From Octopus sinensis (Eukaryota), in the NCBI RefSeq assembly GCF_006345805.1, contig NC_042999.1, forward strand, positions 34,162,001 through 34,226,000: 64,000 nt of DNA, read 5' to 3'. Within the stretch, counting starts at the first letter, position 1. Every line of letters starts with the position of its first letter. A program made the translations under genes and the position numbers. Positions 1-61,617 of the stretch are shown piece after piece. The notes under the pieces were generated by a model, which made no database searches, had not been told where the DNA came from, and saw only the letters and a program-made list of their open reading frames with translations.

Positions 1-837
1 TGTCCAAGTATTTCAATTCCATTATAAGTTGACTGCATTAATGAAAGATAACATCGGTTATTATATATAAACAAACGTAGGAGTATGCTACGAGCGTTTT
101 GTCTTAGACAGTGGCTGATGTTTCATATTATTGTTAATACGATTTTATTGGTTTTTCATGTTTCAATTTTGACGGAGATATCGTAGTGACGCGAGCTGGG
201 GCGCTAAGGACTTTAGTTTACGATGATTTTGTCTCTAATATCGACATTGTGAACGTTAATAAGTTGATATTTTTAATAGAAGCGTAAGTGACGAAGCATT
301 CTCTCTCGTTTCCTTTTCATCCCATGTCCCAACTGTTGTAGCTGAAACTCCATCATGGTCGATTCTATGCTTGAAAACTTTTTATGGCACCATTATTGCA
401 TATATAGTTCTCACCTATTGTGATTACGTTGAATGAAATGCTCCACTCTTTTGATTCCCCTTTGATTAAGTGTCCATGATTGAAAACCACATGATAATAT
501 TGAGATGAAAGTCGCTTGCCCGGTTATAAGTTGCGTTTTTGGTTTTGATGGCTTTGATGGTTATTCTTAAAAGCATGTTTCCTCGGTTTTCTTGAAGTTT
601 CATGAATTAATACAATTTTGTATGCGACATTGTTTTCCGCAATATAGTGATCGGAGAGAATATGTAGAATGTTCGTCAGCAGTCGCATAGAATAATTTTA
701 TCACGAGTCAAGTGTGTACCAACATCATGTTAAATGAATTTATCTTTTCTATTTCTCTGGGTGAGACTTGGAACCAACTTCTACAAATTCAAACAGACGT
801 TTGCATTTGTGCAAACATATATTAATAAAATAATAAC

Positions 838-6539: not shown

Positions 6540-6745
6540 TGTTGAATCGTTAATCCGTGCACGTTTTTTTCTCCCCCTCATTCTTTTCGTTCTGTCCCCA
6601 CTTTTTATCTCTCAATTTTTTCGGTCGAAGAGAGTAGGCTTGAAACGACAAGGACATTTCCACTCTTCCCGAGCGTCAAACAAATACGCCTGATTGGTGT
6701 CCCTTCACCTGTCTTCGTCTTTTGTCATCTGTAAATTTGAACTTT
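6540..6745 (+). mobile_element. Short non-coding element (hammerhead family 2) with degenerate hammerhead-like motif
   Basis: ttt-CGGTCGA-a-gaga-gtag-gctt-GAAA-cgac at 6619-6650, followed by TTCCCGAGCGTC as in family 1. Homologous to 55538-55705 (-). Confidence 0.55.
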
Positions 6746-8044
6746 ACACACACATGTACATGAAAAGGTCTCCATTGCTCATCTTTGTCACATTTGAATA
6801 TTCATCTGCAAATATACGCGCAGGTCTGAGCAAGGTTTGTGGAGGAAGACATGCAGCTATACAAGCATGCAACCCACTCGCTTCCATGACAACGCTCCAA
6901 TCATAGGAACGATCGTCAGATTGGACTGATATGTTTGGGCATTAGCACCATTGAAGACGTTGGTTTCGAAACGAATTAAGGCACAATATACATCACAAGT
7001 TATCTTGCTCAGCTCTACTTCTCCGTGTTGTATTCCTTCTTTATTTTGTCAGGCCTGAAAGTATGAAATACGAAGTCGTCATCGATGAGATTTGAACTCA
7101 CACCTGAAAAATTCAGAACAAATAACGACCGGCATCGTATGAGCCCTGTACCCAACCAAGTCAATTCCTGGTCTTCGTTAAGTGGTCGCTTTTTTTACTA
7201 CTGCTCTGATCGTGCCCCGCTTTCCCCCAATTACCTAGTTATATTAGTGTCTGCTTTGTGAATATTAGGTTTCTTCACGAAAACCTGCTTTACATTTTCT
7301 GTTTTATACATTTTGTGTATTACGTCTCTATTCTTCATAATCAGATAAACGTTCAATCTCACAATGGATAGATATCTTTTCAGATAAATGTATATTCTTT
7401 CAATGGATATATGCTATATACCACCTTGTATTTACTTCTGAATATAAAATTTCAATGCTCGTTACTTGAAAATGGTATCTAAATCCGTTTGTATTTTTAG
7501 TTTTATGCTAATTCAGTTAATGTCCATCAGAATAGAATTTAACTGAAAGTAATTGCATGAGAAGAATAACCAACAGAATCAGCAACACTTCTGAGTAATT
7601 ACTAGTACTAAAAGTATTTGTTTTTTTGTTTTCTATCTGTGTTTATATTATCTGAATCGATCTGCTGAAAATTATCGGACATATATTAAATTTATGATAA
7701 AATATTATATAATATAGAGCTTACTTAGAGTTTCTGGGTGGGTAATTAATATATTTACTTAGTATGCAATGAATAGTAATAACAAAAGGCAACGGCAGAT
7801 GTTCCTTCAGAGTTTATAACAAAAGCCACATCGCCCAATGTTCAATCGAGATTGGAAACATGAGTAAGAAAGGAAAACGAATCGACCCATTACTTATCTT
7901 ATTTTATCGTTCTCTTTTCTGATCTACTAGGTCACGAAGCTGTTAATCAACATCAGTTGTTAAGATGTACTTGTAAACACAACGCAAACGCAAACACCCA
8001 CACACACACTCACACTCACAACTCATACACCCCACCACAAACAT

Positions 8045-8117
<73 letters not shown>

Positions 8118-8120
<3 letters not shown>

Positions 8121-10610
8121 GACGGATAATAAAATTAAAGAAGGAAAGGAAGAAGAAAGGAGGAAAAGGCAAAACAACCAAGACCGAACCGCCACCCACC
8201 TACCAAACAATCAATAAAAAACCCCAATGCCATCCAAAACCCGACAGGAAAGAAGAAATCTGGAAGGCACCCAAAACCTGCAGATTTTACCTGCAAGGCT
8301 AATGTTGGCATGGGGAGGACGGCAAAAGCTGCCGGTTTGCCGACACGACAACCCGCCAGAACTACAGGGGCCTTAAAGAGAAAAACGTCACTGAGGAAAG
8401 ACAACAAATGTCTCCCAGGAAAAGATTCAGAAAGGAAGAGTTCTCCTCAGATGTTCTGCGTAACGCAGCAGCTGAGCAAAAATCTTTATTGTGCATGCAA
8501 TCAAGCCCTATGCATAGCGCTCGTGGAAAGCCACCGCAGCCCTGCTATACAGGATACAGAAGTACACGTACCAAACTATGCAATACTGCGAACAGACAGA
8601 AGGGAAAGGAGCCATGGTGGAGTTACTGTATACATCCGTGATAACCTCATACCCCAGGTCTTACTGTCATACTCAAATTCGGTATGTGACACTCTAATTG
8701 TTTGCATAAGACAATATAATATACTAATATGCAATACATATTGCCCACCGGATGCTCCAAACCACATAGGCATGTTTGAAGATTGCATCACAAACATTAA
8801 AGAAATCCTCATGAATCTGGAGCACCATGTGCTCATATTTCTTATGGGTGATTTCAACTTTTCCAACGTCAAATGGCCTGAAGGTCTCAACTCTCAGGAA
8901 TGACTCATTGCAAGCAAGCACAGGTAGAGTCCCTGCTCAACCTCACCAATGCCTTATTCACGGAGCAAGCTATACTCAGACCAACTAGTGCGAATAACAT
9001 TCTGGATCTCTGCTTCACCAACAATATAGACATCATTCATGATATGAAAGTGACACCGACATTAGTCTCGGATCACAACATAATAGAGCTGTCCATGTTT
9101 GGGCCGAAAGTAACAAGACATACAGTGTAAAGGAAGCATCTGAAATCTCTCCAATCTGAACTTCCACAAAGCAAATTCGAAATCGATCCAAAAACAGATC
9201 CTCAAAAAGAGAAGGCTGGCCGAAATGTCTCTCCACGCCAGACATTGACATGAAACTAGAATGTTTCATTTCTTCTGTGTAAGCCATATGCCAGAAATAT
9301 GTCCCAGAGCACAAGACCAAAACAAATAGGAGCAAGATTCCAAGGGAGCGGAAGATCCTCATGAGACGATGGACGAAGGTTGCAAATCGACTCAACCAAC
9401 AAGTGGCGAAACGTCCCGACTAAAAACAACACTGATGGAGATTGAAAACCGGCTGCAACAATCCTATGTGGGGGAGAAAGCAGACAAAGAAGCCTGAGTT
9501 ATAAAAAACATTAAGGCAATCCCAGAGGCCTACTTTCATTACGCGAAAGAAACAGCCTCAGTAAACTACAAGATAGGACCCCTCCTCCAAAAAGATGGCT
9601 CCCTCACAGACAGTCCAACTAAGATCAGTGAGACACTGAATGACCTTTTCAAAAGTGTCTTTACCACCCCACTGGAACACAGACAAGTGAACGAACAAGT
9701 GGACTTCTTTGCCGTCTTACCTATAACCAGCGAGGCAGTTACTATGGAATGCATTGACATTAGCGATGAAGATATACTACTAGCCATAGATGAACTGAAC
9801 TCAAACTCAACTGCTGGTCCTGGTGGTTTCCCAGCAATCTTCCTCAAATCGTGTAAGCATGCCCTAGCAAAATCCCTCCAGATTCTCTTCCAAAACTTTC
9901 TTACAAATGGCAAACTGCCAAGCAAGCTGAAGGAGGGTATAATATGCCCAATACATAAAGGGGAGAAGTAGAGCAGATGCCAAAAACTATAGGCCTATCT
10001 CTCTGACTTCACACATCAGCAAAGTCATGGAACAGATAGTCAGAGGGAAACTAATCGCATTCCTTGAAGAAAACAACCTGCTGAGTGATACCCAGCATGG
10101 TTTTCGACCAGGTAGGAGCTGCCTGAGCCAGCACATTAAACATTATGACTGGGTGTTGAGGCATTTACTCAACAAATCAAATGTGGACGTAATATAACTT
10201 GATTTTGCAAAAGGTTTTGACAAGGTGGATCATGGTATGATGTGCCACAAACTGCGTGACCTTGGCATAGATGAAATACTTGGAGAGTTGTTACACGACT
10301 TCCTGAAAGATAGGAGTCATGCAGTATCGGCTAATGGAGCCAACTCTATGAACACACAAATAGTGAGCGGTGTTCCACAGGGCAATGTCATGGGACAACT
10401 GCTTTTCATAGTGGCCCTCTCAGATATGCCCTCAAATGACCAGATAGCCACCCTTGCAAGCTATGCAGATGATATGAAATTCTCGCAGAAAATACAGAAC
10501 CCGAGCGATGTTGCACACTTGCAGCAGGAGTTAGACTCAATTTACAGATGGACTGAGGATAATAATATGCAGTTTAATGCAGAAACAGTCCAAGCATGCA
10601 CTACAAAACA
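8118..10610 (+). mobile_element. CR1-group LINE, decayed ORF2 (APE endonuclease and reverse transcriptase)
   Basis: APE motifs YAILRTDR..GGVTVYIRD, YCPPD, MGDFNF, ILDLCFTN, SDHNII. RT motifs NYRPISLTS, QHGFRPGRSC, DFAKGFDKVDH, SGVPQG, YADD. Multiple stops and frameshifts. Starts next to (TA)n. Confidence 0.9.
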
Positions 10611-11416: not shown

Positions 11417-11470
<54 letters not shown>

Positions 11471-11475
<5 letters not shown>

Positions 11476-11614
11476 ATCCAAACATGAAAACTCAAAGAGG
11501 AAACACAACACGAGGAAGTGGAACTACTATAGTGTTATTGGACGCTCGGGAAAGGAAAGAAAGAAGGAGGATTTAAAAGGAAAGATCCAAGGAAGGGAAG
11601 ACGGAGGAAAAAAA
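11471..11614 (-). mobile_element. Hammerhead family 1 element with the ribozyme core deleted
   Basis: Aligns with 41175-41374 and 60669-60814 but lacks about 36 nt spanning the hammerhead core at about 11576. Lies between (TA)n tracts. Confidence 0.75.
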
Positions 11615-13570: not shown

Positions 13571-13585
13571 CCTCTATATATATAA

Positions 13586-13883
13586 CTAGCAGTATCGCCT
13601 AGCGTTGCTCGGGTTTGTAAGGGAAATAACTATATAAGCATTTTTAGAGAGTTACTTCCCTTATATAATAGCGAAAAAATGCGTTAAAAATGGGAAAAAT
13701 GATGGTAATATTTTTTTTAAATCGTAGACTCATCGTAGACCCGCGCTAATACCCAGAAGGGCTCGATATGAATCACAACTATAAGATACCCGGTTTTGGT
13801 TACACTGCACCGCAAAATGTGGGAGTAGTTAGGAATCTAAATCGTAGGAGACAGATACACAACTTCACTTTTATATATAAAGA
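13586..13883 (-). mobile_element. Non-autonomous Helitron (family H1)
   Basis: On the - strand: 5' TC start (TCTTTATATATAAAAG), 3' imperfect hairpin CCCGAGCAACGCTAGG, then CTAG. Inserted between A and T with no TSD. Homologous to 60899-61292. Confidence 0.85.
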
Positions 13884-14539
13884 TAACTATTGAAAAGATT
13901 ATTTCCATGGCCCAAAATTGCAAAGTCTAGAACGTTTGTCATAGGACGTTGAACCACAGTATAAAATTTGTCAATGTAGAAGACAGAACTTAAAATTTTT
14001 AAAAGTATATTGAATGCATTTGGAACTGAATATAAATGCCAAATAAACGGGTTCGTGGTACTATGATTGGCTCGTACATCGGAGAGTTTATGGTGAGGTA
14101 GACGAGAAACCTGTGCTCTGTTTGAGAAATGCTGCCGAGAACAGCGGAAGTTCAGTTTTCATTCACTTCCTTTCCTGATTCATTTTCATAAGTTGTAGGT
14201 CTACATCAAGTTCTTTCATTAATATTTTACATTTATCAAAACAAAATTGCGTACCACTTTTATGATTGATTTGTCACAAAATATGGCAATTTAAAAATAC
14301 AAAAAAACAAAATTACGCAAAACATTTGTCTCTCAGTAGAGGCACAAATGCAAAATGAATGTGACAAAACTAGCTGGCGGCATGTCGAGAATAGTAGCAT
14401 TTGATAAGGTAAAGTGTAACAAAAATATAATGTTTATTGTTGCAGTAGTACATTGCTTTTAATCTTTCCCTCAGATATATTTTAATTTTCATAATTAGCA
14501 TGAAATCTTCATCTCGGTAGAAATGGTTCATACAATATA

Positions 14540-17400: not shown

Positions 17401-17459
17401 TGTTTTTGTTTTTCCAGTTTCAGCTCTTGAGCTGTGGCCATGCTGGGGCACCGCCATTG

Positions 17460-17610
17460 TGGTGAAAGAGTACAGCAGGGATCACCACCCCTTGCCGGAG
17501 CCTCGTAGAGCTTTTAGGTGTTTTCGCTTAATAAACACACACAACGCCCGGTCTGAGAATCGAAACCGCGATCCTGCGACCGCGAGTCCGCTGCCCTAAC
17601 CACTAGGCCA
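17460..17610 (-). mobile_element. SINE family C, 5' fragment with tRNA-like head
   Basis: Reverse complement reads TGGCCTAGTGGTTAGGGCAGCGGACTCGCGGTC..GGTTTCGATTC and matches 55849-56232. Surrounded by family B fragments at about 17255-17455 and 17740-17915. Confidence 0.8.
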
Positions 17611-32440: not shown

Positions 32441-32793
32441 GCACTTCTTCGATTGCAACAACGAGGGTTCCAGTTGATCCGATCAACGGAACAGCCTGCT
32501 CTTGAAATTAAGGTGCAAGTGGCTGAGCACCCCACAGACACGTGCCCCCTTAATATAACTCTCGTGGAGATTTAACGTGACACAGGTACAACAGCGTGAC
32601 ACAGGTACAATAGGAACAAGAAGAAAGAGTGAGAGAAAGTTGTGGTGAAAGTACAAGGTTCGCCGTGGCCCCAAACCAGTGGCACGTGGAGTTTTCGCTC
32701 AATAAATACACACAACGCCCGGTCTGGGATTCGAAACCGTAATCATACGACCGTGAGTCCACTGCCCTATCCACTGGGCCATTGCGTTTCCAC
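32441..32793 (-). mobile_element. SINE family C, near full length
   Basis: Reverse complement is colinear with 55849-56232 and has a tRNA-like head with A and B boxes. Confidence 0.85.
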
Positions 32794-33309
32794 ATACACA
32801 CACACACACGTAATATATGTACGTCATATATGTATGTATAAATGAGTGTGCGCGTTTAAATTATTTGTGATGTAAAGCAGAATGTCACCGAGTTTCTAAA
32901 TTATATGAGGCTCAAACAACACCGTAGAATGTCATTAAGGAACAATAACTCTTTTTTTTTCTATTGATGGCAAATTATGAAGAATAACGGAATTTGGAAA
33001 GGAGAGTCGTAAAGAAAACCCAAGCGTGAATTTATTTTGACAGCAATAATTAATCAGAGTTAAACGAATTTTTATAAACTTACTAATGATCCAGTTGTGT
33101 GTGTCTGCATTTCAAATTAAGAACGTAACATTCATTTTTATCTTGTTTAAAAACTACTCGTTATAATTTAGCAAAATGATGACAAGCTATAAGCGTGTGG
33201 TGTGTATAACACGGAGATGTTTCGCAGGCGTAAACAAACCGCGGCCATTTACAAGATTTCCACGCACTTTCAGTGTTCTAAATCATTAATTTGTGATCTG
33301 ATAATCGTG

Positions 33310-39350: not shown

Positions 39351-41174
39351 TATACGACGGGCTTCTTTCAGTTTCACAAGGCTACGGTATTGCTAGAAAT
39401 AAGAGTTAAAACAACTGAAATCTACAAAGCACTATCTTAATGAGATAACAATGGAGACAACCCCCCCCCCCTCCAGGGTCGCAGATAGAGCTTGATCACA
39501 TTCTAGATGATTTCGCATTCTGATGCTTAACACATATGAATTCCCACCAGTAGCTCTAATCGCACCTAGGATTAAACTCATCTCGCCTAGTCAGCATATA
39601 AGATCTCCATTGAAATCATATACTGATTTCATGACCGGTAAAGTGAGAATTATAAATAATATTGGTCGATAATTCGCAATTTTACATTTTAAGGGCAGTA
39701 ATATATACGTCTCTAAAGTGAACAAGGGCTCTAATCAGCACCAGTATTGTTAGAAATAAGCGTCAAAATTACTCATTAGTCAAAAAATGCACTTAAGGAG
39801 CTGAGAATTGACACAAACAGCCAACATATAAATATGACGAATTGTGTGCATTTTGACATGTATTACGTGTATGTGTTAGAATTTTAGCATATGAAATTAT
39901 ATTGATAATATTGATTCAGTTTGTTTTCTTTTTCTGCCGATCACAGCAGAGTCATTTTGTGAGGACGTATCGTGGATCAGTTACCAAATGTGTAATGCAT
40001 CTTATATTTGTGTCCATACAGAAATATTCCATATTGTTGCAAATTTATTTGTTATATCTTTATTCAATTTCTTTTATATACAAGAGGAAATATTTTTCCT
40101 TCATTAAGAATCCACTCGTAGCAATATATTTCCGGTAAGTCTTGGACAAAAAGAAGTATAGATTATAAGAAAATTTATGTTATAGGGTTAAAATTGTTTG
40201 AGAAATTCAGAACAATAAAGAATAAATGGATTCCTTGTTTTCTCTCTTCATACACTTCTGCTTATATTCTTTTATTCCAGCTTGTATTTTAATGTTTTTC
40301 AAAATCAAATTTATTTCTTGTATATTGTTTGTTTTGTTTTGCGTCATTCGCACCTATCTTGATATTCACACTTTCGTTACCAGTCACACATCTATGCAGA
40401 ACTCCATTTGGTTCTATAGGAAACAAACAGAACAAACGCCTAGAAACCGTTTCACACAACCATATGTAGATTAAATATGTTTTCATACTCATCAAAACAA
40501 CACACACTCACGCCAACACGAATGCACATGGACGCATCCACACACACACACACACATACACACACACACACACGCACATACATACACAAATACACTCAAA
40601 CAAACACACACATATATCTAGAAAAGTTTTTGTCTCCTTCAAAAATACTGACGTGTTGTATTGTGATCATTCCTTCTAGTTCATTTACGTGAGAAATTTA
40701 TAGACACGAGCGTATTGCTAGCTCTATAAAATTTACAATATCAAACATAAACCCACGTATTCACACTTCCACCATGCACACACTTACACAGACACGCACA
40801 CGCACACACATAACACAACCATGTATGATGTATGTGTATGTGCATACCTGAACGTATTTGTGTAGATACGTATGTATATGGTTACGCACGAAGACATCCT
40901 ATCCTGTCTGTATGTGATGCAGGCAGAATGTAAAGAATTAGACATACAAAGCGCTAACATATGCTTCAATGACGTATTTATTAATTTCCTAATTTCATTA
41001 ACTATAATATCTATATAGAAAAGTTTACTTCCTGTATGTATACTACATCAAAGATTATTTATAAATATATTCCATTTTTTAATCAATTTTTATGTAAATA
41101 TGTGGTAGGGAACCGTTATATTTTAGATTTTGTTACGTCTCTAATGGCCTTGTGCCTAGTACGCGCATGACCGC

Positions 41175-41374
41175 GTGTGTACCGTTAGCGATTTTTTTTC
41201 CTCCGTCTTCCCTTCTCTGGATCTTTCCTTTTCCTATGTTTCTGACGAAGAGCTCCGCTCAAAACGTAAAACCCTCCTTCTTCCCTTCCTTCCTGAGCGT
41301 CCAATAATACTATATTTGGTCCACGTCCTCGCGTTGTTGTGTTTTCTCTTGGTGTTTTCATGTTTGGATTAACT
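41175..41374 (+). mobile_element. Hammerhead family 1 short non-coding element ending in (TA)n
   Basis: Homologous to 60669-60814 (-) and 11471-11614 (-). Contains the hammerhead motif. Confidence 0.8.
41238..41272 (+). ncRNA. Minimal type I hammerhead ribozyme motif (G12 mutated to A in this copy)
   Basis: GTTT-CTGACGA-A-GAGC-tcc-GCTC-aAAA-CGTA-AAAC. Stem I is GTTT/AAAC, stem II is GAGC/GCTC, stem III is the palindrome ACGT, and the cleavage triplet is GUA. Confidence 0.65.
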
Positions 41375-41617
41375 ATATATATATATGTTTTTATAACCTA
41401 CTGTATGATGAGTATCCAACGGACGGTATGTGGGTGTTGATAACTTTCTAATGCGCATTGCTAGCAATTCTGTCATGCATTGCAACTGATGTATAGAATA
41501 TGATACTCTATGATTAACAACGTGAAAGACTCCGTATGGAAATATTTCTCAAAATTGTCTGAAAAAAATACAAATGCCAGACAATTTCAGGTAAAAATTA
41601 AAACAATATATCCTTAC

Positions 41618-43172: not shown

Positions 43173-43362
43173 ATATCAAGTGCTTAGCAGAGTGAAATTT
43201 CAAGAAAATATATTATTGTGACTGGAAGTGAAATAACTTAGCAAAATATAAATAAAAATCGAACTTATCCTTTCTTTTTGACATAGCTTCTCTTAACCTT
43301 TTCCGTTTTTCGGAATTCCTACGGGTCCCAGTAGTTGACTGTATGGTAAAGTCTTTCTTCTC

Positions 43363-43768
43363 AGCTACATGGTTCCAGATTCAATCCCACTACGTCGAAC
43401 CTTGAGCAAGTATCTTCTCGTATAGCCTCAGTACGACCAAAGACTTGTGAGTGGATTTCGTAGACGGAGACTGAAAAAAGCCTATCGTATAGTTGTGCGT
43501 GTGCTTTTTTTTTTCTGTGCATGTGTGAGTGTGTATATCTGTGTCTGTGTCTTTACCTGCATGTTTATCCCCGCTATCCCCGCTTGACAACCGGAGCTGG
43601 TCTGTTACATCCCCATAAATTAGCGGTTCGGCGAAGCAGACCGATACAATAAGTACTAGGCTTAAGAAATAAGTCCTGAGGACGATTCGTTCTACTAAAA
43701 CCCTTCAAGGCGGTGCTCCTGCATGGCCTCAGTCAAATGACTGAAACAAGTGAAAGAATAAAAGAATA
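43363..43768 (+). mobile_element. SINE family B, diverged copy
   Basis: Colinear with 54817-55222. Confidence 0.8.
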
Positions 43769-46938: not shown

Positions 46939-47365
46939 TATGCATATACAGATATAGGTTTTGCAGTATAGTTAAGACACTATGTATTACATCCATATAT
47001 GTTTCTGGTTCAGTCACACAGCTTTGCAACTTGTATAAGTATCTTCTACTATATCACTGGGCTAACTACAATCTGCTTTGAGAAGGGTGTCTCATTTTCC
47101 TGAAAAGTGTTCGTGTCATAAACAATGTTGTGTTTAGATAACAGAATAACCTAAACGTTTAGATAAAACAGAGTCGCAGGCAAATGAATGTGAATTTAAA
47201 TACCATCTCCATGCAGGACAAGGACCATGGCGTCGAATGTGGCAATAAATACAATCCAGATCTAACTCGTATGAAGTTAGAACGATTACATAAACACACT
47301 TATACTTGAAACATATAGTTGCAGGACGCACAAAATGCAGATTATTAAATTATGAAATATATACA

Positions 47366-47537
47366 CTCTTTTACTCTTTTAGTTGTTTCAGTCATTTGAA
47401 TGCGGCCATGCTGGAGCACCGCCTTTTAGTCGAGCAAATCAACCCCAGGACTTATTTTTGTAAGCCTAGTACTTATTCTGTCGGTCTTTTTTTCCCACCG
47501 CTAAGTAACGGGGACGTGAACACACACACACATATAT

Positions 47538-47586
<49 letters not shown>

Positions 47587-47745
47587 CGACAGGCTTCTTT
47601 CAGTTTTCGTCTACCAAATCCACTCAGAAGGCTTATAGTAGAAGACACTTTCCCAAGGTGCCACGCAGTGGGACTGAACCCGGAACCGTGTGGTTGGTAA
47701 GCAAGCTACTTACCACACAGCCACTCCTGCACCTATATATATATA

Positions 47746-47790
<45 letters not shown>

Positions 47791-48225
47791 TATACTCTTT
47801 ACTCTTTACTCTTTTACTTGTTTCAGTCATTTGACTGCGGCCATGCAGGAGCACCTACTTTTAGTCGAGTAACTCGACACAGGACTTATTCTTTGTAAAC
47901 CTAGTACTTATTCTATAAGACTCTGTTGCTGAACCGCTAAGTTACGGGGACGTAAACACACCACCGTCGGTTGCCAAGCAATGGTGGGGGGACAAACACA
48001 GAGACACAAACACACACACACATACGTATATATATATATACATATAAATATATATATATATATACATATATACGACGGGCTTCTTCCAGTTTCCGTCTAC
48101 CAAATCCACTCACAAGGCTTTGGTCGGCCCGAGGCTATAGTAGAAGACACTTGCCCAAGGTGGGAATGAACCCGGAACCATGTGGTTGCTAAGCAAGCTA
48201 CTTACCACACAGCCACTCCTGCGCC
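47366..48225 (-). mobile_element. Two head-to-tail SINE family B copies separated by (TA)n
   Basis: 47366-47733 and 47795-48225 each match the reverse complement of 54817-55222. Confidence 0.9.
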
Positions 48226-49140: not shown

Positions 49141-49559
49141 ATACAGACCGAACCATCAAGGCCAATTACATACAGACCAAACCACCAAGGCCAATAAACC
49201 AGATATTGTTGTGAAAGACCAAAACAATAAAGTTTGCATATTGATCGACATGAGCATCCCTGTGATTATAATATCTCAGCGAAAGAGTTTGACAAGCTCA
49301 GAAAATATAAAGACCTACTCATTGAAATTGTGCAAAAGATAGTCTTCACTGGTACATCACACGTATTGAGAAGAGCATTGTCGATGTGAGAACTGTTGCT
49401 GCTCATGTATTTTAAATTTAACTTAAAAAAAAAAAAAATCAACGAACTATTGAGTTTGGTTTAATGGCCTACCAATGTATACTATGAGTTTCTTTGCCCT
49501 AGGAGTCGGGAAGACACTCGGCAAGAAATGGAAGCAAATTTGAAAGAAGAAAAAAAAAA

Positions 49560-54079: not shown

Positions 54080-54577
54080 CATTTTTGCTTCCATTTCTTG
54101 CCGAGTGTCTTCCCGACTCCTAAGGCAAAGAAGCTCATAGTATACATTGGTAGGCTATTAAACCAAACTCAATAGTTCGTTCATTTTTTTTTTTTTTTTT
54201 TTAAAGCTATATTAAAATACATGAACAGCAACAGTTCTCACATCGACAATGCTCTTCTCAATACCTGTGATGTACCAGTTAAGACAATCTTTTGCACTTC
54301 TTGCAGGGATGGTAAGCCAGGGATCATTCTCATATAATTTTCGGTTCCCTTCTTGATCATTCCTAGTGCTCCTACGATCACTGGTATTGTAACCGCCTTG
54401 ACATGCCACATTTTCTCAATTTCAATGAGTAGGTCTTTATATTTTCTGAGCTTGTCAAACTCTTTCGCTGAGATATTATGATCACAGGGGATGCTCATGT
54501 TGATCAATAAGCAAACTTTATTGTTTTGGTCTTTCACAACAATATCTGGTTTATTGGCCTTGATGGTTCGGTCTGTA
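54080..54577 (-). mobile_element. R4/Dong-type RLE 3' fragment in (TAA)n on the element strand
   Basis: ORF 54238..54537 is RLE. (TTA)n lies on both sides on the + strand, so TAA is on the element strand. Confidence 0.88.
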
Positions 54578-54816: not shown

Positions 54817-54820
<4 letters not shown>

Positions 54821-55222
54821 AGAGTGGCTGTGTGGTAAGTAGCTTGCTACCCAACCACATGGTTCCGGGTCCAGACCCACTGCGTGGCATCTTGGGCAAG
54901 TGTCTTCTACTATAGCCTCGGGCCGACCAAAGCCTTCTCAGTGAATTTGGTAGACGGAAACTGAAAGAAGCCCGTCGTATATATATCTATCTATATATAT
55001 GTCTGTGTGTGTGTTTGTGTCTCTGTGTTTGTCCCCCCAACATCGCTTGGCAACCGGTGCTGTTGTGTTTACGTCCCCGTACCTTAGCGGTTCGGCAAAA
55101 GACACCGATAGAATAAGTGCTAGGTTTACAAAGAATAAGTCCTGGGGTCGATTTGCTCGACTGAAAGCGGTGCTCCAGCACGGCCACAGTCAAATGACTG
55201 AAACAAGTAAAAGAGTAAAGAG
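54817..55222 (+). mobile_element. SINE family B, full length (tRNA head, CORE-like block, internal TA/TG tract, AAAAGAGT tail)
   Basis: A box TGGCTGTGTGG; B-box region GGTTCCGGGTCCAGACCC; CORE-like GTGGCATCTTGGGCAAGTG. About 10 partial or full copies in the window. Confidence 0.9.
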
Positions 55223-55537: not shown

Positions 55538-55705
55538 AAATTTACAGTAAAACAAAAGACGAAAACAGATGCATGAACAACATATAGGTGTGTTAAGTCT
55601 GAAAGTAAGAAAGTATTTTACATTTCGAGCCTAAGCTCCTCAAAAGAAAGGAATAAGAGAAAATAAACAGAGAGAATAAAAAACTTATGGATTTAACGAT
55701 CAAAT
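55538..55705 (-). mobile_element. Hammerhead family 2 element between TA tracts, degenerate motif
   Basis: The - strand reads ttt-CTTTTGA-g-GAGC-ttag-GCTC-GAAA-tgta-aaa at about 55617-55649. Homologous to 6540-6745. Confidence 0.55.
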
Positions 55706-55783: not shown

Positions 55784-55848
<65 letters not shown>

Positions 55849-55851
<3 letters not shown>

Positions 55852-56232
55852 GAGGCGCAATGGCCCAGTGGTTAGGGGAGCGGACTCGCGGTCATAGGAT
55901 CGCGGTTTCGATTCCCAGACCGGACGTTGTGAGTGTTATTGAGCGAAAACACCTAAAAGCTTCACGAGGCTCCGGCAGGGGATGGTGGTGATCCCTGCTG
56001 TACTCTTTCACCACAACTTTCTCTCAGTCTTACTTCCTGTTTCTGTTGTACCTGTATTTCAAAGGGCCGGCCTTCTCACTCTCTGTGTCACGCTGAATAT
56101 CCCCGAGAAGTACGTTAAGTGTGCACGTGTCTGTGGAGTGCTCAGCCACTTACACGTTAATTTCACGAGCAGGCTGTTCCGTTGATTCGGGTCAACCGGA
56201 ACCCTCATCGTCGTAACCGACGGAGTGCTTCC
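55849..56232 (+). mobile_element. SINE family C, full length, in (TA)n
   Basis: tRNA-like head with A box TGGCCCAGTGG and B box GGTTTCGATTCC. Other copies at 17.5 and 32.6 kb. Confidence 0.88.
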
Positions 56233-60012: not shown

Positions 60013-60668
60013 ATAGGTAGACAGATAGATAGACAGATATATTTGGAAGAGAGAATTTTTTTCGTCAATATACATCTATGAAAAGTGTAGTTATCCAGCG
60101 AGAAAATCGGAAGCTGAATTTCTTAGTCTTTACTGACATCTGCTCTGGCCCGAACTACATACAATCTTTTGTCAGTATCATAGTGAGAATACCAGTGAAC
60201 CCATCATCGCCGTATTAGTATTTTGTAAGCAGCAATGCTATTGTTCATAGATTGTGATATAAAATACAAATAAATTATATTCTTTGAACTCTACATTATA
60301 TTTAACAAGATGCCTGAACAAAGACGTCTAAGTTATTAACAAAAGAAAAGAGACTAAATTGTTTCTACAACATAGAACATATGTTATAATAGATTAAAAA
60401 CCGTACCTGTCTCAACTTGTTTCTTAATAGGCAAATGGATTATTTTGCAAGAATATTCTGTATGAGTATTTTTACATATACAGACTGAATGTTGCTGAAT
60501 GACATCACTTACGCTATTCATAGATTTACGATGAAAATAGATTTTATTTTGCATTATCTGAGAAAGCATTATTTACGTATCACTTGAAATGACACAACAT
60601 TATAAAAGGATTTCATTTTTATAAACGGCCATATGCCTGTTCCTCTGCGCACAAACATATATATATAT

Positions 60669-60814
60669 GGAACAAATATAGTATTATTGGACGCTCAGGA
60701 AAGAAGGAAAGAAGGAGGGTTTAACGTTTCGAGCGGAGCTCTTCGTCGGAAACATAGGAGAAGGAAAGATCCAGAGAAGGGAAGACAGAGGAAAAAAATC
60801 GCCAACGGTACACA
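60669..60814 (-). mobile_element. Hammerhead family 1 element in (TA)n
   Basis: Homologous to 41175-41374, with TA tracts on both sides. Confidence 0.8.
60719..60753 (-). ncRNA. Minimal hammerhead ribozyme motif (U4 mutated to C; GUU at the cleavage site in this copy)
   Basis: The - strand reads GTTT-CcGACGA-A-GAGC-tcc-GCTC-GAAA-CGTt-AAAC. Confidence 0.6.
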
Positions 60815-60875: not shown

Positions 60876-60898
60876 ATATATATATATATATATATATA

Positions 60899-61292
60899 TC
60901 TTTATATATAAAAGTGAGGTTGTGTGCTGTCTGTCTCCTACGATTTAGATTCCTAACTACTCCCACATTTTGCGGTGCAGTTTAACCAAAACCGGATATC
61001 TTATAGTAGTGATTCATATCGAGCCCTTGTGGGTATTAGTGCGTGTCTACGATGAGTCTACGATTTTAAAAAAAATTACCATCAATTTTTCCCATTTTAA
61101 TGCATTTTTGGCATATATAAGGGGAATAACTCTCTAAAAATTTATTATTAAATCTCAGAACGTAAAAAGCTACAGTAACACCCCCCCCTTTGTGGTTAGC
61201 CATATTGAGATGGCTATTATACTTTACATCTCTAAAAATGCTTATATAGTTATTTCCCTTACAAACCCGAGCAACGCCGGGTGATACTGCTA
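60899..61292 (+). mobile_element. Non-autonomous Helitron (family H1, longer variant)
   Basis: TC start, 3' hairpin CCCG-agcaacgc-CGGG, end CTA running into TA repeats. Colinear with 13586-13883 plus 98 extra bp. Confidence 0.85.
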
Positions 61293-61299
61293 TATATAT

Positions 61300-61577
61300 A
61301 TTCTTTTCTTTGATTCTTTAACTTGTTCCAGTCATTTGGCAGCGGCCATGCTGTAGCACTGCCTTTAGTCCAACAGATTGACCCCGGGACTTTTTCCTCG
61401 TAAGTCTAGTACTTATTCTATTTGTCTTTTTTGCTGAACGGCTAAATTACGGGGACGTAAACAAACCAAAATCGGTTTCAAGATTAATTCCTGTGGTCGA
61501 TTTCTTAACTAAAAGGCGATGTTCCAGCATGGACGCAGTCAGATGATTGAAACAAGTAGAAAATAAAAAAAAGAATA
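61300..61577. mobile_element. Two SINE family B 3' fragments in opposite orientation
   Basis: 61300-61480 (-) and 61481-61577 (+) both match the 3' part of 54817-55222. Confidence 0.7.
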
Positions 61578-61617
61578 CATACAAATATGTGTGTGTGTAT
61601 GTGTGTGTGCATGTATA

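What the first reader, a model, noticed from the sequence alone, without database searches (positions are those of the whole stretch)
41175..41374. Family of 150-200 bp hammerhead-ribozyme-carrying non-coding elements lodged in (TA)n
Seen: two homologous copies (41238-41272 + and 60719-60753 -) carry different core mutations. Their consensus, GTTT-CTGACGA-A-GAGC-tcc-GCTC-GAAA-CGTA-AAAC, is a complete type I hammerhead: both conserved boxes, stem I, stem II, a GUA site and a loopless palindromic stem III (ACGT). Known: Penelope-like elements carry such minimal hammerheads in their terminal repeats, and these are thought to cleave as dimers. Inference: this is either a retrozyme-like non-autonomous family or solo PLE terminal repeats that target TA microsatellites. 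Five related copies in 64 kb would imply very high genomic abundance if this window is typical.
Basis: partly seen in the sequence, partly recalled or inferred. Interest (0 to 1): 0.8.

Follow-up and report, generated by a model that had tools for sequence, protein, structure and literature searches.

The report
Penelope retroelement ends with weakened hammerheads
This ~210-base repeat, present in over 11,000 copies in an animal genome, is the ribozyme-bearing tail end of a known kind of retrotransposon (a Penelope-like element); most copies stop at one narrow point, likely the start of a short RNA, and most carry a changed catalytic core predicted to cut poorly.

Summary
The repeat and its hammerhead are real, but it is not an orphan non-coding family. 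It is the 3' end (pseudo-LTR, pLTR) of an RT + GIY-YIG Penelope-like element with a Neptune/Nematis-type Zn-finger linker. It lies directly before the element's 5'UTR in 18 of 22 loci and flanks the ORF on both sides in 5. At least 11,059 copies exist; 91 of 99 sampled end in (TA)n. It is fixed in a young sister family with intact ORFs. Unexpected: 64 of 99 copies have 5' ends within 17 nt, about 105 nt upstream of the cleavage site (genome-wide 31-fold step), and 5 of 8 chimeric junctions fall there, pointing to a defined RNA 5' end, likely the pLTR start site. Copies run uncut through the ribozyme and are not tandem, so they are not retrozymes. Cleavage and transcription start are untested. 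A known kind of element with two new, testable twists.

The parts
41168..41374 (+). Solo pLTR copy 1 of PLE family B; 5' end 101 nt upstream of the predicted cleavage site, complete 3' end (...GGATTAACT)
41238..41272 (+). Minimal type I hammerhead: stem I 41238-41241/41269-41272, core CTGACGA 41242-41248, bulged A 41249, stem II 41250-41260, G12>A at 41261 (predicted to be dead), palindrome ACGT 41264-41267, predicted cut after 41268
   Evidence: sequence; column counts; role of G12 from established hammerhead knowledge (recalled)
41375..41388 (+). (TA)7 at the 3' junction (target/tail)
60668..60814 (-). Solo pLTR copy 2, 5' end at -93, 3'-truncated after TTGTTCCA, (TA)n on both sides
60719..60753 (-). 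Hammerhead in the family's majority form: C at core position 4 (60748), GUU site (H17 = 60723), both stems intact
11471..11614 (-). Solo pLTR copy 3; a 36-nt deletion removes the hammerhead and ends at the predicted cleavage site (+/-2 nt, TT microhomology); followed by (TA)n 11417-11471
6607..6683 (+). Decayed hammerhead-like motif of a distant relative (resembles family C), not family B
   Evidence: (E 2.9e-4)
55603..55647 (-). Possible decayed hammerhead-like motif of a distant relative; not significant
   Evidence: E 0.37

Best explanation
The repeat is the hammerhead-bearing 3' end (pLTR) of a Penelope-like retroelement with an RT, a CX4CXXC linker and a GIY-YIG nuclease, and most copies were likely made by that element's enzymes copying a short RNA that likely starts at the pLTR's own transcription start into (TA)n tracts, while the ribozyme would cut only weakly and only as a dimer. 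Shown: the layout pLTR-TTATATAC-5'UTR-ORF-(CA)-rich 3' region-pLTR; a fixed 3' end at (TA)n; a sharp 5'-end peak at -113..-97; copies running intact through the cleavage site; U4C/GUU as the majority core. Inferred: target-primed reverse transcription with the element's terminal UUAUAUA pairing to the nicked (TA)n; an RNA 5' end at -112/-111 (C|ATTCAAAATG, inside an initiator-like TCATTC, motif recalled); loss of up to ~14 nt at the 5' join through AT/TA/TG microhomology; dimer-dependent, attenuated cleavage (monomers fold with the core GACG paired to CGUU/CGUC).
For: PLE link: longer copies extend through ~1.3 kb of (CA)-rich sequence into RT and GIY-YIG coding remnants. 18 of 22 5'UTR-bearing loci have this pLTR directly upstream; L061, L119, L121, L123, L132 have it on both sides of the ORF. 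The sister family A has intact 1008-aa frames between two hammerhead pLTRs (L096, L097), with RVT_1 (E 2e-4) and GIY-YIG (E 1e-3) hits below Pfam cut-offs and Atlas neighbours at 0.97 carrying RVT_1/HTH_animal/GIY-YIG. The hammerhead is selectively kept: A vs B 33 of 35 columns identical inside, 135 of 216 outside, p = 7e-5. Stem I covaries between families (G-C in B, C-G in C) and stem II differs but still pairs in two further families. H17 is A, C or U by lineage but G in only 80 hits against >=8,638. Defined 5' end: 64 of 99 ends in -113..-97, hazard 7.6%/nt vs 0.2% downstream and 1.0% upstream. Genome-wide marker 4,198 just downstream vs 136 just upstream. 5 of 8 placeable chimeric junctions at -112..-110 (L107, L117, L118, L129, L202). 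The peak persists in subfamilies where the local hairpin is only 4 bp. D. virilis Penelope has its start site and internal promoter in the pLTR (PMC2377424 passages).
Against: No RNA 5'-end data: the start site is inferred from DNA only. The peak overlaps a 7-bp hairpin and the first TG/TA-like stretch, both alternative causes. The young family A has a much weaker peak (best 17-nt window 5 of 30) and its upstream pLTRs start anywhere from -98 to -801 (8 loci), which a start site inside the pLTR does not explain. 5 family B upstream pLTRs also reach past -190, and 3 of 8 chimeric junctions lie further upstream (about -126, -151, -173). No intact family B ORF was seen (longest open stretch 109-675 aa in 21 loci). 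Cleavage was not tested; attenuation rests on one sentence in PMC3088659 (U4C lowers activity in vitro yet supports viroid infectivity) and on folding predictions.
Confidence: 0.6

Rival explanations
1. Ordinary 5'-truncated PLE copies: the RT copies the full-length RNA but stalls or joins preferentially at -113..-97 because of the hairpin CGGUCAU/GUGACCG and the first TA/TG-like microhomology after ~90 nt of pyrimidines. No short RNA is needed.
For: A 7-bp hairpin covers exactly this interval (about -9.4 kcal/mol). End positions sit on AT/TG steps (-111, -106, -104, -103). Long and short copies share subfamily haplotypes. 5' truncation leaving one terminal repeat is the usual fate of PLE insertions (10.64898/2026.07.22.740005, Discussion).
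Against: The peak persists where the hairpin is 4 bp (about -4.8). The hairpin is no stronger than in shuffles (z -0.33). A stall would be expected at the 3' foot (-97), whereas chimeric junctions are at -112..-110. The (CA/TA)-rich region upstream offers plenty of microhomology yet has a 7-fold lower hazard.
Confidence: 0.25
2. Circular-template (retrozyme-like) route: the two hammerheads of a full-length transcript cut as a dimer, the unit is ligated into a circle, and the RT primes at the internal UUAUAUAC junction. The ribozyme is fully functional and copies cross the site because it was re-ligated.
For: Proposed for PLEs in PMC4209133 (Discussion). It fits family A's random more-than-unit 5' ends and 3' junctions ending in TTATATA. 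Weak hint of some cleavage: of 34 distinct loci read by eye's first 100 rows, 20 start at -1..+2, 8 at +3..+7 and 6 at -13..-2; window copy 3's deletion ends at the site.
Against: A circle has no end at -112, so it does not explain the peak. Solo copies are not tandem (1 of 99). The excess is confounded by TA microhomology at TTAAA and by the 20-nt gap limit; in the unbiased sample only 2 of 99 start within 2 nt of the site.
Confidence: 0.1
3. The hammerhead is a decaying relic in these lineages (U4C in A and most of B, a U.U mismatch in A's stem I, A6U/A6C in family C) and the motif is kept for another role, such as RT/EN binding or promoter function.
For: All three related families carry a core deviation, including the youngest (25 of 30 family A marker loci show CCGACGA and none CTGA; family C mostly CTGTTGA). 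Naiads spread without canonical hammerheads (PMC8557442 passages). Monomers fold into a core-sequestering rod.
Against: H17 avoids G while moving among A, C and U; stems covary between families; U4C and A6C are known low-activity but functional variants (PMC3088659 passages).
Confidence: 0.2

Closest known systems
Neptune (or Nematis) clade EN+ Penelope-like elements with minimal hammerheads in pLTRs (PMC4209133; PMC8557442)
   Same: Single RT + C-terminal GIY-YIG ORF, CX2-5CXXC linker, CCHH motif, partial-tandem pLTRs, minimal type I hammerhead with a bulged nucleotide before stem II, G10.1-C11.1 and palindromic 15.2/16.2, microsatellite targeting, mostly solo motifs.
   Different: Majority core is U4C with GUU (A6U in a sister family), not reported for PLEs in the passages read. 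Solo copies have a narrowly defined length instead of random truncation. A 1.3-3 kb (CA)-rich 3' region. No 5'UTR intron detected.
Metazoan non-LTR retrozymes (PMC7229834; 10.64898/2026.07.22.740005)
   Same: Short, non-coding, type I hammerhead, related to a PLE pLTR, likely moved by PLE enzymes.
   Different: Retrozymes are head-to-tail tandem repeats, mostly with canonical hammerheads, yielding circRNAs. Here copies are dispersed monomers with one minimal hammerhead in the middle, so a monomer transcript cannot release a unit circle.
Drosophila virilis Penelope (PMC2377424)
   Same: Start site and internal promoter lie in the pLTR, upstream of the hammerhead; this is the model for the inferred start at -112/-111.
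   Different: Penelope/Poseidon clade (no linker Zn finger), has a 75-bp intron; its start site is mapped, ours is inferred.
U4C hammerhead variant of a viroid (cited in PMC3088659)
   Same: Same core change; low in vitro activity, still functional in vivo.
   Different: There a rare variant; here the majority state in thousands of genomic copies and fixed in a family with intact ORFs.

Membership tests
EN+ Penelope-like element | Single ORF with RT followed by GIY-YIG endonuclease | tested here: met
   Family B remnants cover aa 1-948 of the family A protein at mostly 60-90% identity; family A: RVT_1 E 2e-4, GIY-YIG E 1e-3, both below curated cut-offs, none for the whole frame; Atlas 0.97
EN+ Penelope-like element | Partial-tandem pLTRs flanking the ORF | tested here: met
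   pLTR upstream of the 5'UTR in 18 of 22 loci, on both sides of the ORF in 5
EN+ Penelope-like element | CCHH motif with two Cys between GIY and YIG | tested here: met
   GLIYCIKCNLCGMLYVG...EH...RH in L096; definition in PMC8557442 Introduction
Neptune/Nematis clades | CX2-5CXXC linker between RT and EN | tested here: met
   CSRSRCNTC in L096 and CSRPRCRTC in L102; read in families A and C, not separately in a family B translation
Neptune clade (vs Nematis) | RT phylogeny with reference elements | not tested
   No reference PLE proteins were fetched
PLE minimal hammerhead | Core CUGANGA...GAAA | tested here: inconclusive
   Met in U4 subfamilies (2,431 exact; 35 of 91); the majority is CCGACGA (6,207; 56 of 91)
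PLE minimal hammerhead | Stems I and II, bulge before stem II, palindromic loopless helix III, NUH site | tested here: met
   30 of 91 copies fully intact; between-family covariation; G17 in 80 hits. Family A stem I has a U.U mismatch
PLE minimal hammerhead | Self-cleavage as a dimer | not testable with these tools
   Needs in vitro cleavage
Rfam hammerhead families | Covariance-model match | tested here: not met
   No hammerhead model at E<=1 in the window or E<=10 on an intact copy
Non-LTR retrozyme | Head-to-tail tandem units each with a hammerhead | tested here: not met
   1 of 99 sampled copies has an adjacent same-strand copy; 7 of 100 loci hold any second hit, 4 of them inverted
Non-LTR retrozyme | Unit-length circular RNA | not testable with these tools
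   Only assembled contigs were available

The most novel reading that the evidence does not exclude
The solo pLTR behaves as a SINE-like parasite of its own Penelope element: a self-contained ~215-nt Pol II unit (initiator at -111, ribozyme in the middle, UA tail) that outnumbers 5'UTR-bearing copies by some 40-fold. Weakening of the hammerhead (U4C, GUU; A6U in a sister lineage) was favoured because an efficient ribozyme destroys the template. These copies would then be a genomic record of PLE RNA 5' ends and of selection tuning ribozyme activity down.
Probability: 0.25. Interest if true: 0.65.

Novelty: new variant of a known kind. Interest (0 to 1): 0.42.

Why it matters
Hammerheads in PLE pLTRs have been known since 2014, so the basic finding is ordinary. 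Their function and the way pLTRs are regenerated remain open (PMC2377424 and PMC8557442 passages). This genome offers a natural series: three related families with U4, U4C and A6U/A6C cores, thousands of copies, a young family with intact ORFs, and a sharp 5'-end landmark. That makes two questions directly testable: is PLE ribozyme activity needed or tuned down, and are solo pLTRs copied from a short transcript? It also shows that CUGANGA-based descriptors and Rfam miss most of these motifs.

Tried and rejected
Rfam: no hammerhead hit; its microRNA hits are TA/CA microsatellite artefacts. The repeat finder was swamped by microsatellites. Expression: no RNA holder on record was listed. Four runs guessed to be RNA (3 studies, 2 organism codes) were laid as contigs on L107:3290-4075. 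All cover the pLTR, one contig bridges pLTR and 5'UTR, and no GT..AG joint appears among the 15 of 22 joints shown. This says nothing on level, strand, start site or cleavage and is not used as evidence. tRNA-SINE/Pol III origin: rejected by eye, since the only B-box-like stretch is the ribozyme's GCTCGAAAC and a T7-8 run lies upstream (boxes recalled, no tool run). Independent short master family: not supported, because long and short copies share haplotypes in several subfamilies; no tree was built. Start of full-length copies at the cleavage site, as for R2: not seen, none of the upstream pLTRs starts there. The constrained hammerhead energies had an off-by-one error in stem II and were discarded; its unconstrained co-folds did not give the hammerhead dimer. 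Literature: the Lunse et al. paper on PLE hammerhead dimers is not held; only its title and the review's summary were seen, so a report of U4C there cannot be excluded. Searches that found no description of this family or of U4C in PLEs: (CC-licensed PMC and bioRxiv only; Repbase/Dfam not searchable; supplements not opened). Earlier scan findings: none.

Full report
Setting. The window is G000:C3:34162001-34226000 in a 2.72-Gb animal genome of 13,516 contigs, rich in TA/CA microsatellites.

Observation. The stretch 41175-41374 has two relatives in the window: 60814-60668 (-, 93% over 148 nt) and 11614-11471 (-), whose hammerhead is deleted up to the predicted cleavage site. A profile from 99 genomic copies adds only two decayed motifs of distant relatives (E 3e-4 and 0.37), so there are three copies, not five. 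The hammerhead layout is as described. Rfam does not detect it. A descriptor finds 191 motifs, 121 with stem I >=3 bp, in 1.12 Mb of pre-selected loci, against 8, 4 and 5 (none with stem I >=3) in shuffles.

What it is. The 30 fetched best hits all end at the same base, followed by TA repeats. Longer copies extend upstream through about 1.3 kb of (CA)-rich sequence into coding remnants of an RT and a GIY-YIG C-terminus. Of 22 loci examined for the element's 5'UTR, 18 have this repeat directly before TTATATAC-5'UTR, and five (L061, L119, L121, L123, L132) have it on both sides of the ORF. This is the partial-tandem pLTR layout of Penelope-like elements (PMC8557442, Introduction and passages; PMC4209133, parts 1-2 of 4). 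I call the window's family B. None of 21 B loci has an intact frame (109-675 aa). A sister family A (79% nucleotide identity in the ORF) has intact 1008-aa frames between two hammerhead pLTRs (L096, L097). Its protein gives no Pfam hit whole, weak RVT_1 and GIY-YIG hits in pieces and Atlas neighbours at 0.97 with RVT_1, HTH_animal and GIY-YIG. It has the CX4CXXC linker and CCHH motif that mark Neptune and Nematis. No tree was built.

Abundance and target. A 24-nt marker downstream of the ribozyme occurs 11,059 times (exact, a lower bound); the 5'UTR search had 293 candidates. The first 100 marker hits on C1 (99 after one duplicate) form a sample not chosen on ribozyme state or 5' end. In it 95 have a complete 3' end, 91 have (TA)3 on the 3' side and 59 on the 5' side, against 9% background. 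Seven of 100 loci hold a second copy within 2-3 kb, only one adjacent and on the same strand. So these are dispersed monomers, not the tandem non-LTR retrozymes of PMC7229834 (passages) or 10.64898/2026.07.22.740005 (parts 1-3 of 5).

The ribozyme. G12>A at 41261 is private (G in 83 of 91), but the C at core position 4 is the majority: C 56, T 35 of 91. Genome-wide there are 6,207 exact CCGACGA cores and 2,431 CTGACGA cores; the first figure includes family A, whose own marker has 979 hits. Position 17 is T 82, C 6, A 3, G 1 of 92, and G17 has 80 hits genome-wide. Thirty of 91 copies keep both stems and all other core positions: 16 C4/GUU, 9 U4/GUU, 4 C4/GUC, 1 U4/GUA. Family A has C4, GUC and a U.U mismatch in stem I (25 of 30 loci matched, none with U4). 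A third family, C, has mostly A6U or A6C with a perfect 5-bp stem I. The motif is nonetheless conserved between A and B (33 of 35 columns vs 135 of 216, gaps counted as mismatches, p = 7e-5), and stems covary between families. U4C is reported to cut activity considerably in vitro while still supporting a viroid, and A6C to give low activity (PMC3088659, passages). Monomers fold with core GAC(G) paired to the palindrome side, an inactive shape. PLE minimal hammerheads are reported to work weakly and only as dimers. I infer a real but attenuated, dimer-dependent ribozyme; cleavage is untested.

The unexpected part. 5' ends are not random: 64 of 99 fall in -113..-97 from the cleavage site, 23 downstream and 12 upstream (7.6%, 0.2% and 1.0% per nt; long ends are censored at -314; the window was chosen after seeing the data). 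Genome-wide, a marker at -94..-72 has 4,198 hits and one at -137..-113 has 136 (the two patterns may cover subfamilies unequally). Some insertions join a broken 5' part of the element to a pLTR, as expected from template jumping. Five of the eight junctions I could place are at -112..-110 (L107, L117, L118, L129, L202) and three further upstream (L120, L122, L133); L130 and L134 were not placed. The site reads GG-TCATTC-AAAATG, like an initiator (consensus recalled), or TCTTTC in other subfamilies. D. virilis Penelope starts within its pLTR from an internal promoter (PMC2377424, passages). Against this reading: a 7-bp hairpin covers the same interval, though the peak persists where it shrinks to 4 bp. 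Family A shows only a weak peak (5 of 30 in its best 17-nt window; Fisher p = 5e-6 against B) and random upstream starts from -98 to -801. Seven of 21 incidental family C copies start at -109..-98. Long and short B copies share haplotypes, so no separate short master is shown.

Signs of cleavage. 91 of 99 copies cover the ribozyme, so their templates were uncut or re-ligated. Only 2 of 99 start within 2 nt of the site. A targeted search, read by eye from its first 100 rows (34 distinct loci), gave 20 starts at -1..+2, 8 at +3..+7 and 6 at -13..-2. This is a weak hint of occasional cleavage, confounded by TA microhomology and the gap limit.

Verdict. Membership in EN+ PLEs is about 95% secure and Neptune-type is likely. 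The short-RNA mechanism with an attenuated ribozyme is about 60%. It is a known kind of element, with two features I did not find in the searches: a majority U4C core and a defined-length solo pLTR. The Lunse et al. paper, Repbase and supplements were not seen and may bear on this. Interest 0.42.

Noticed in passing
G000:C18:3.67-5.79 Mb: 37 of the first 100 listed hits of the rare upstream marker lie here, 33 on the minus strand, mostly 14-160 kb apart: probably one long copy carried inside a segmentally amplified unit or gene cluster.
   Followed up: no
L065:4380-6640 (G000:C6921): 608-bp tandem units, each with one forward and one inverted pLTR piece, so two hammerheads face opposite ways per unit.
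   Followed up: partly
L102, L104 and 19 other motifs: PLE family C (about 77% aa identity in the RT piece, 1009-aa open frame in L102) carries an A6U/A6C hammerhead core with a perfect 5-bp stem I.
   Followed up: partly
L020 upstream flank; L034 about 570-610 (minus orientation): Two further unrelated minimal hammerhead families with canonical CTGANGA cores and different stem II sequences.
   Followed up: no
L107:3302-9759: Chimeric locus: family B pLTR + 5'UTR + ORF start, a second B pLTR piece that breaks off just after the ribozyme, (TA)n, then a 5'-truncated family A element.
   Followed up: partly
L096 about 6660-9500: Family A has a ~3-kb (CA)-rich 3' region with two GC-rich islands, a possible source of CA-microsatellite-like DNA across the genome.
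   Followed up: no
window 43336-43762, 47365-48224, 54817-55222, 61296-61580; 13576-13885 and 60897-61301; 17457-17609, 32441-32795, 55847-56228; 49171-49538 and 54084-54577: Several other interspersed repeat families, mostly next to TA tracts; not classified.
   Followed up: no
L123:7570-8317: Three pLTRs in a row, separated by TA runs, at the 3' end of a full-length B element: successive insertions into the same TA tail.
   Followed up: no
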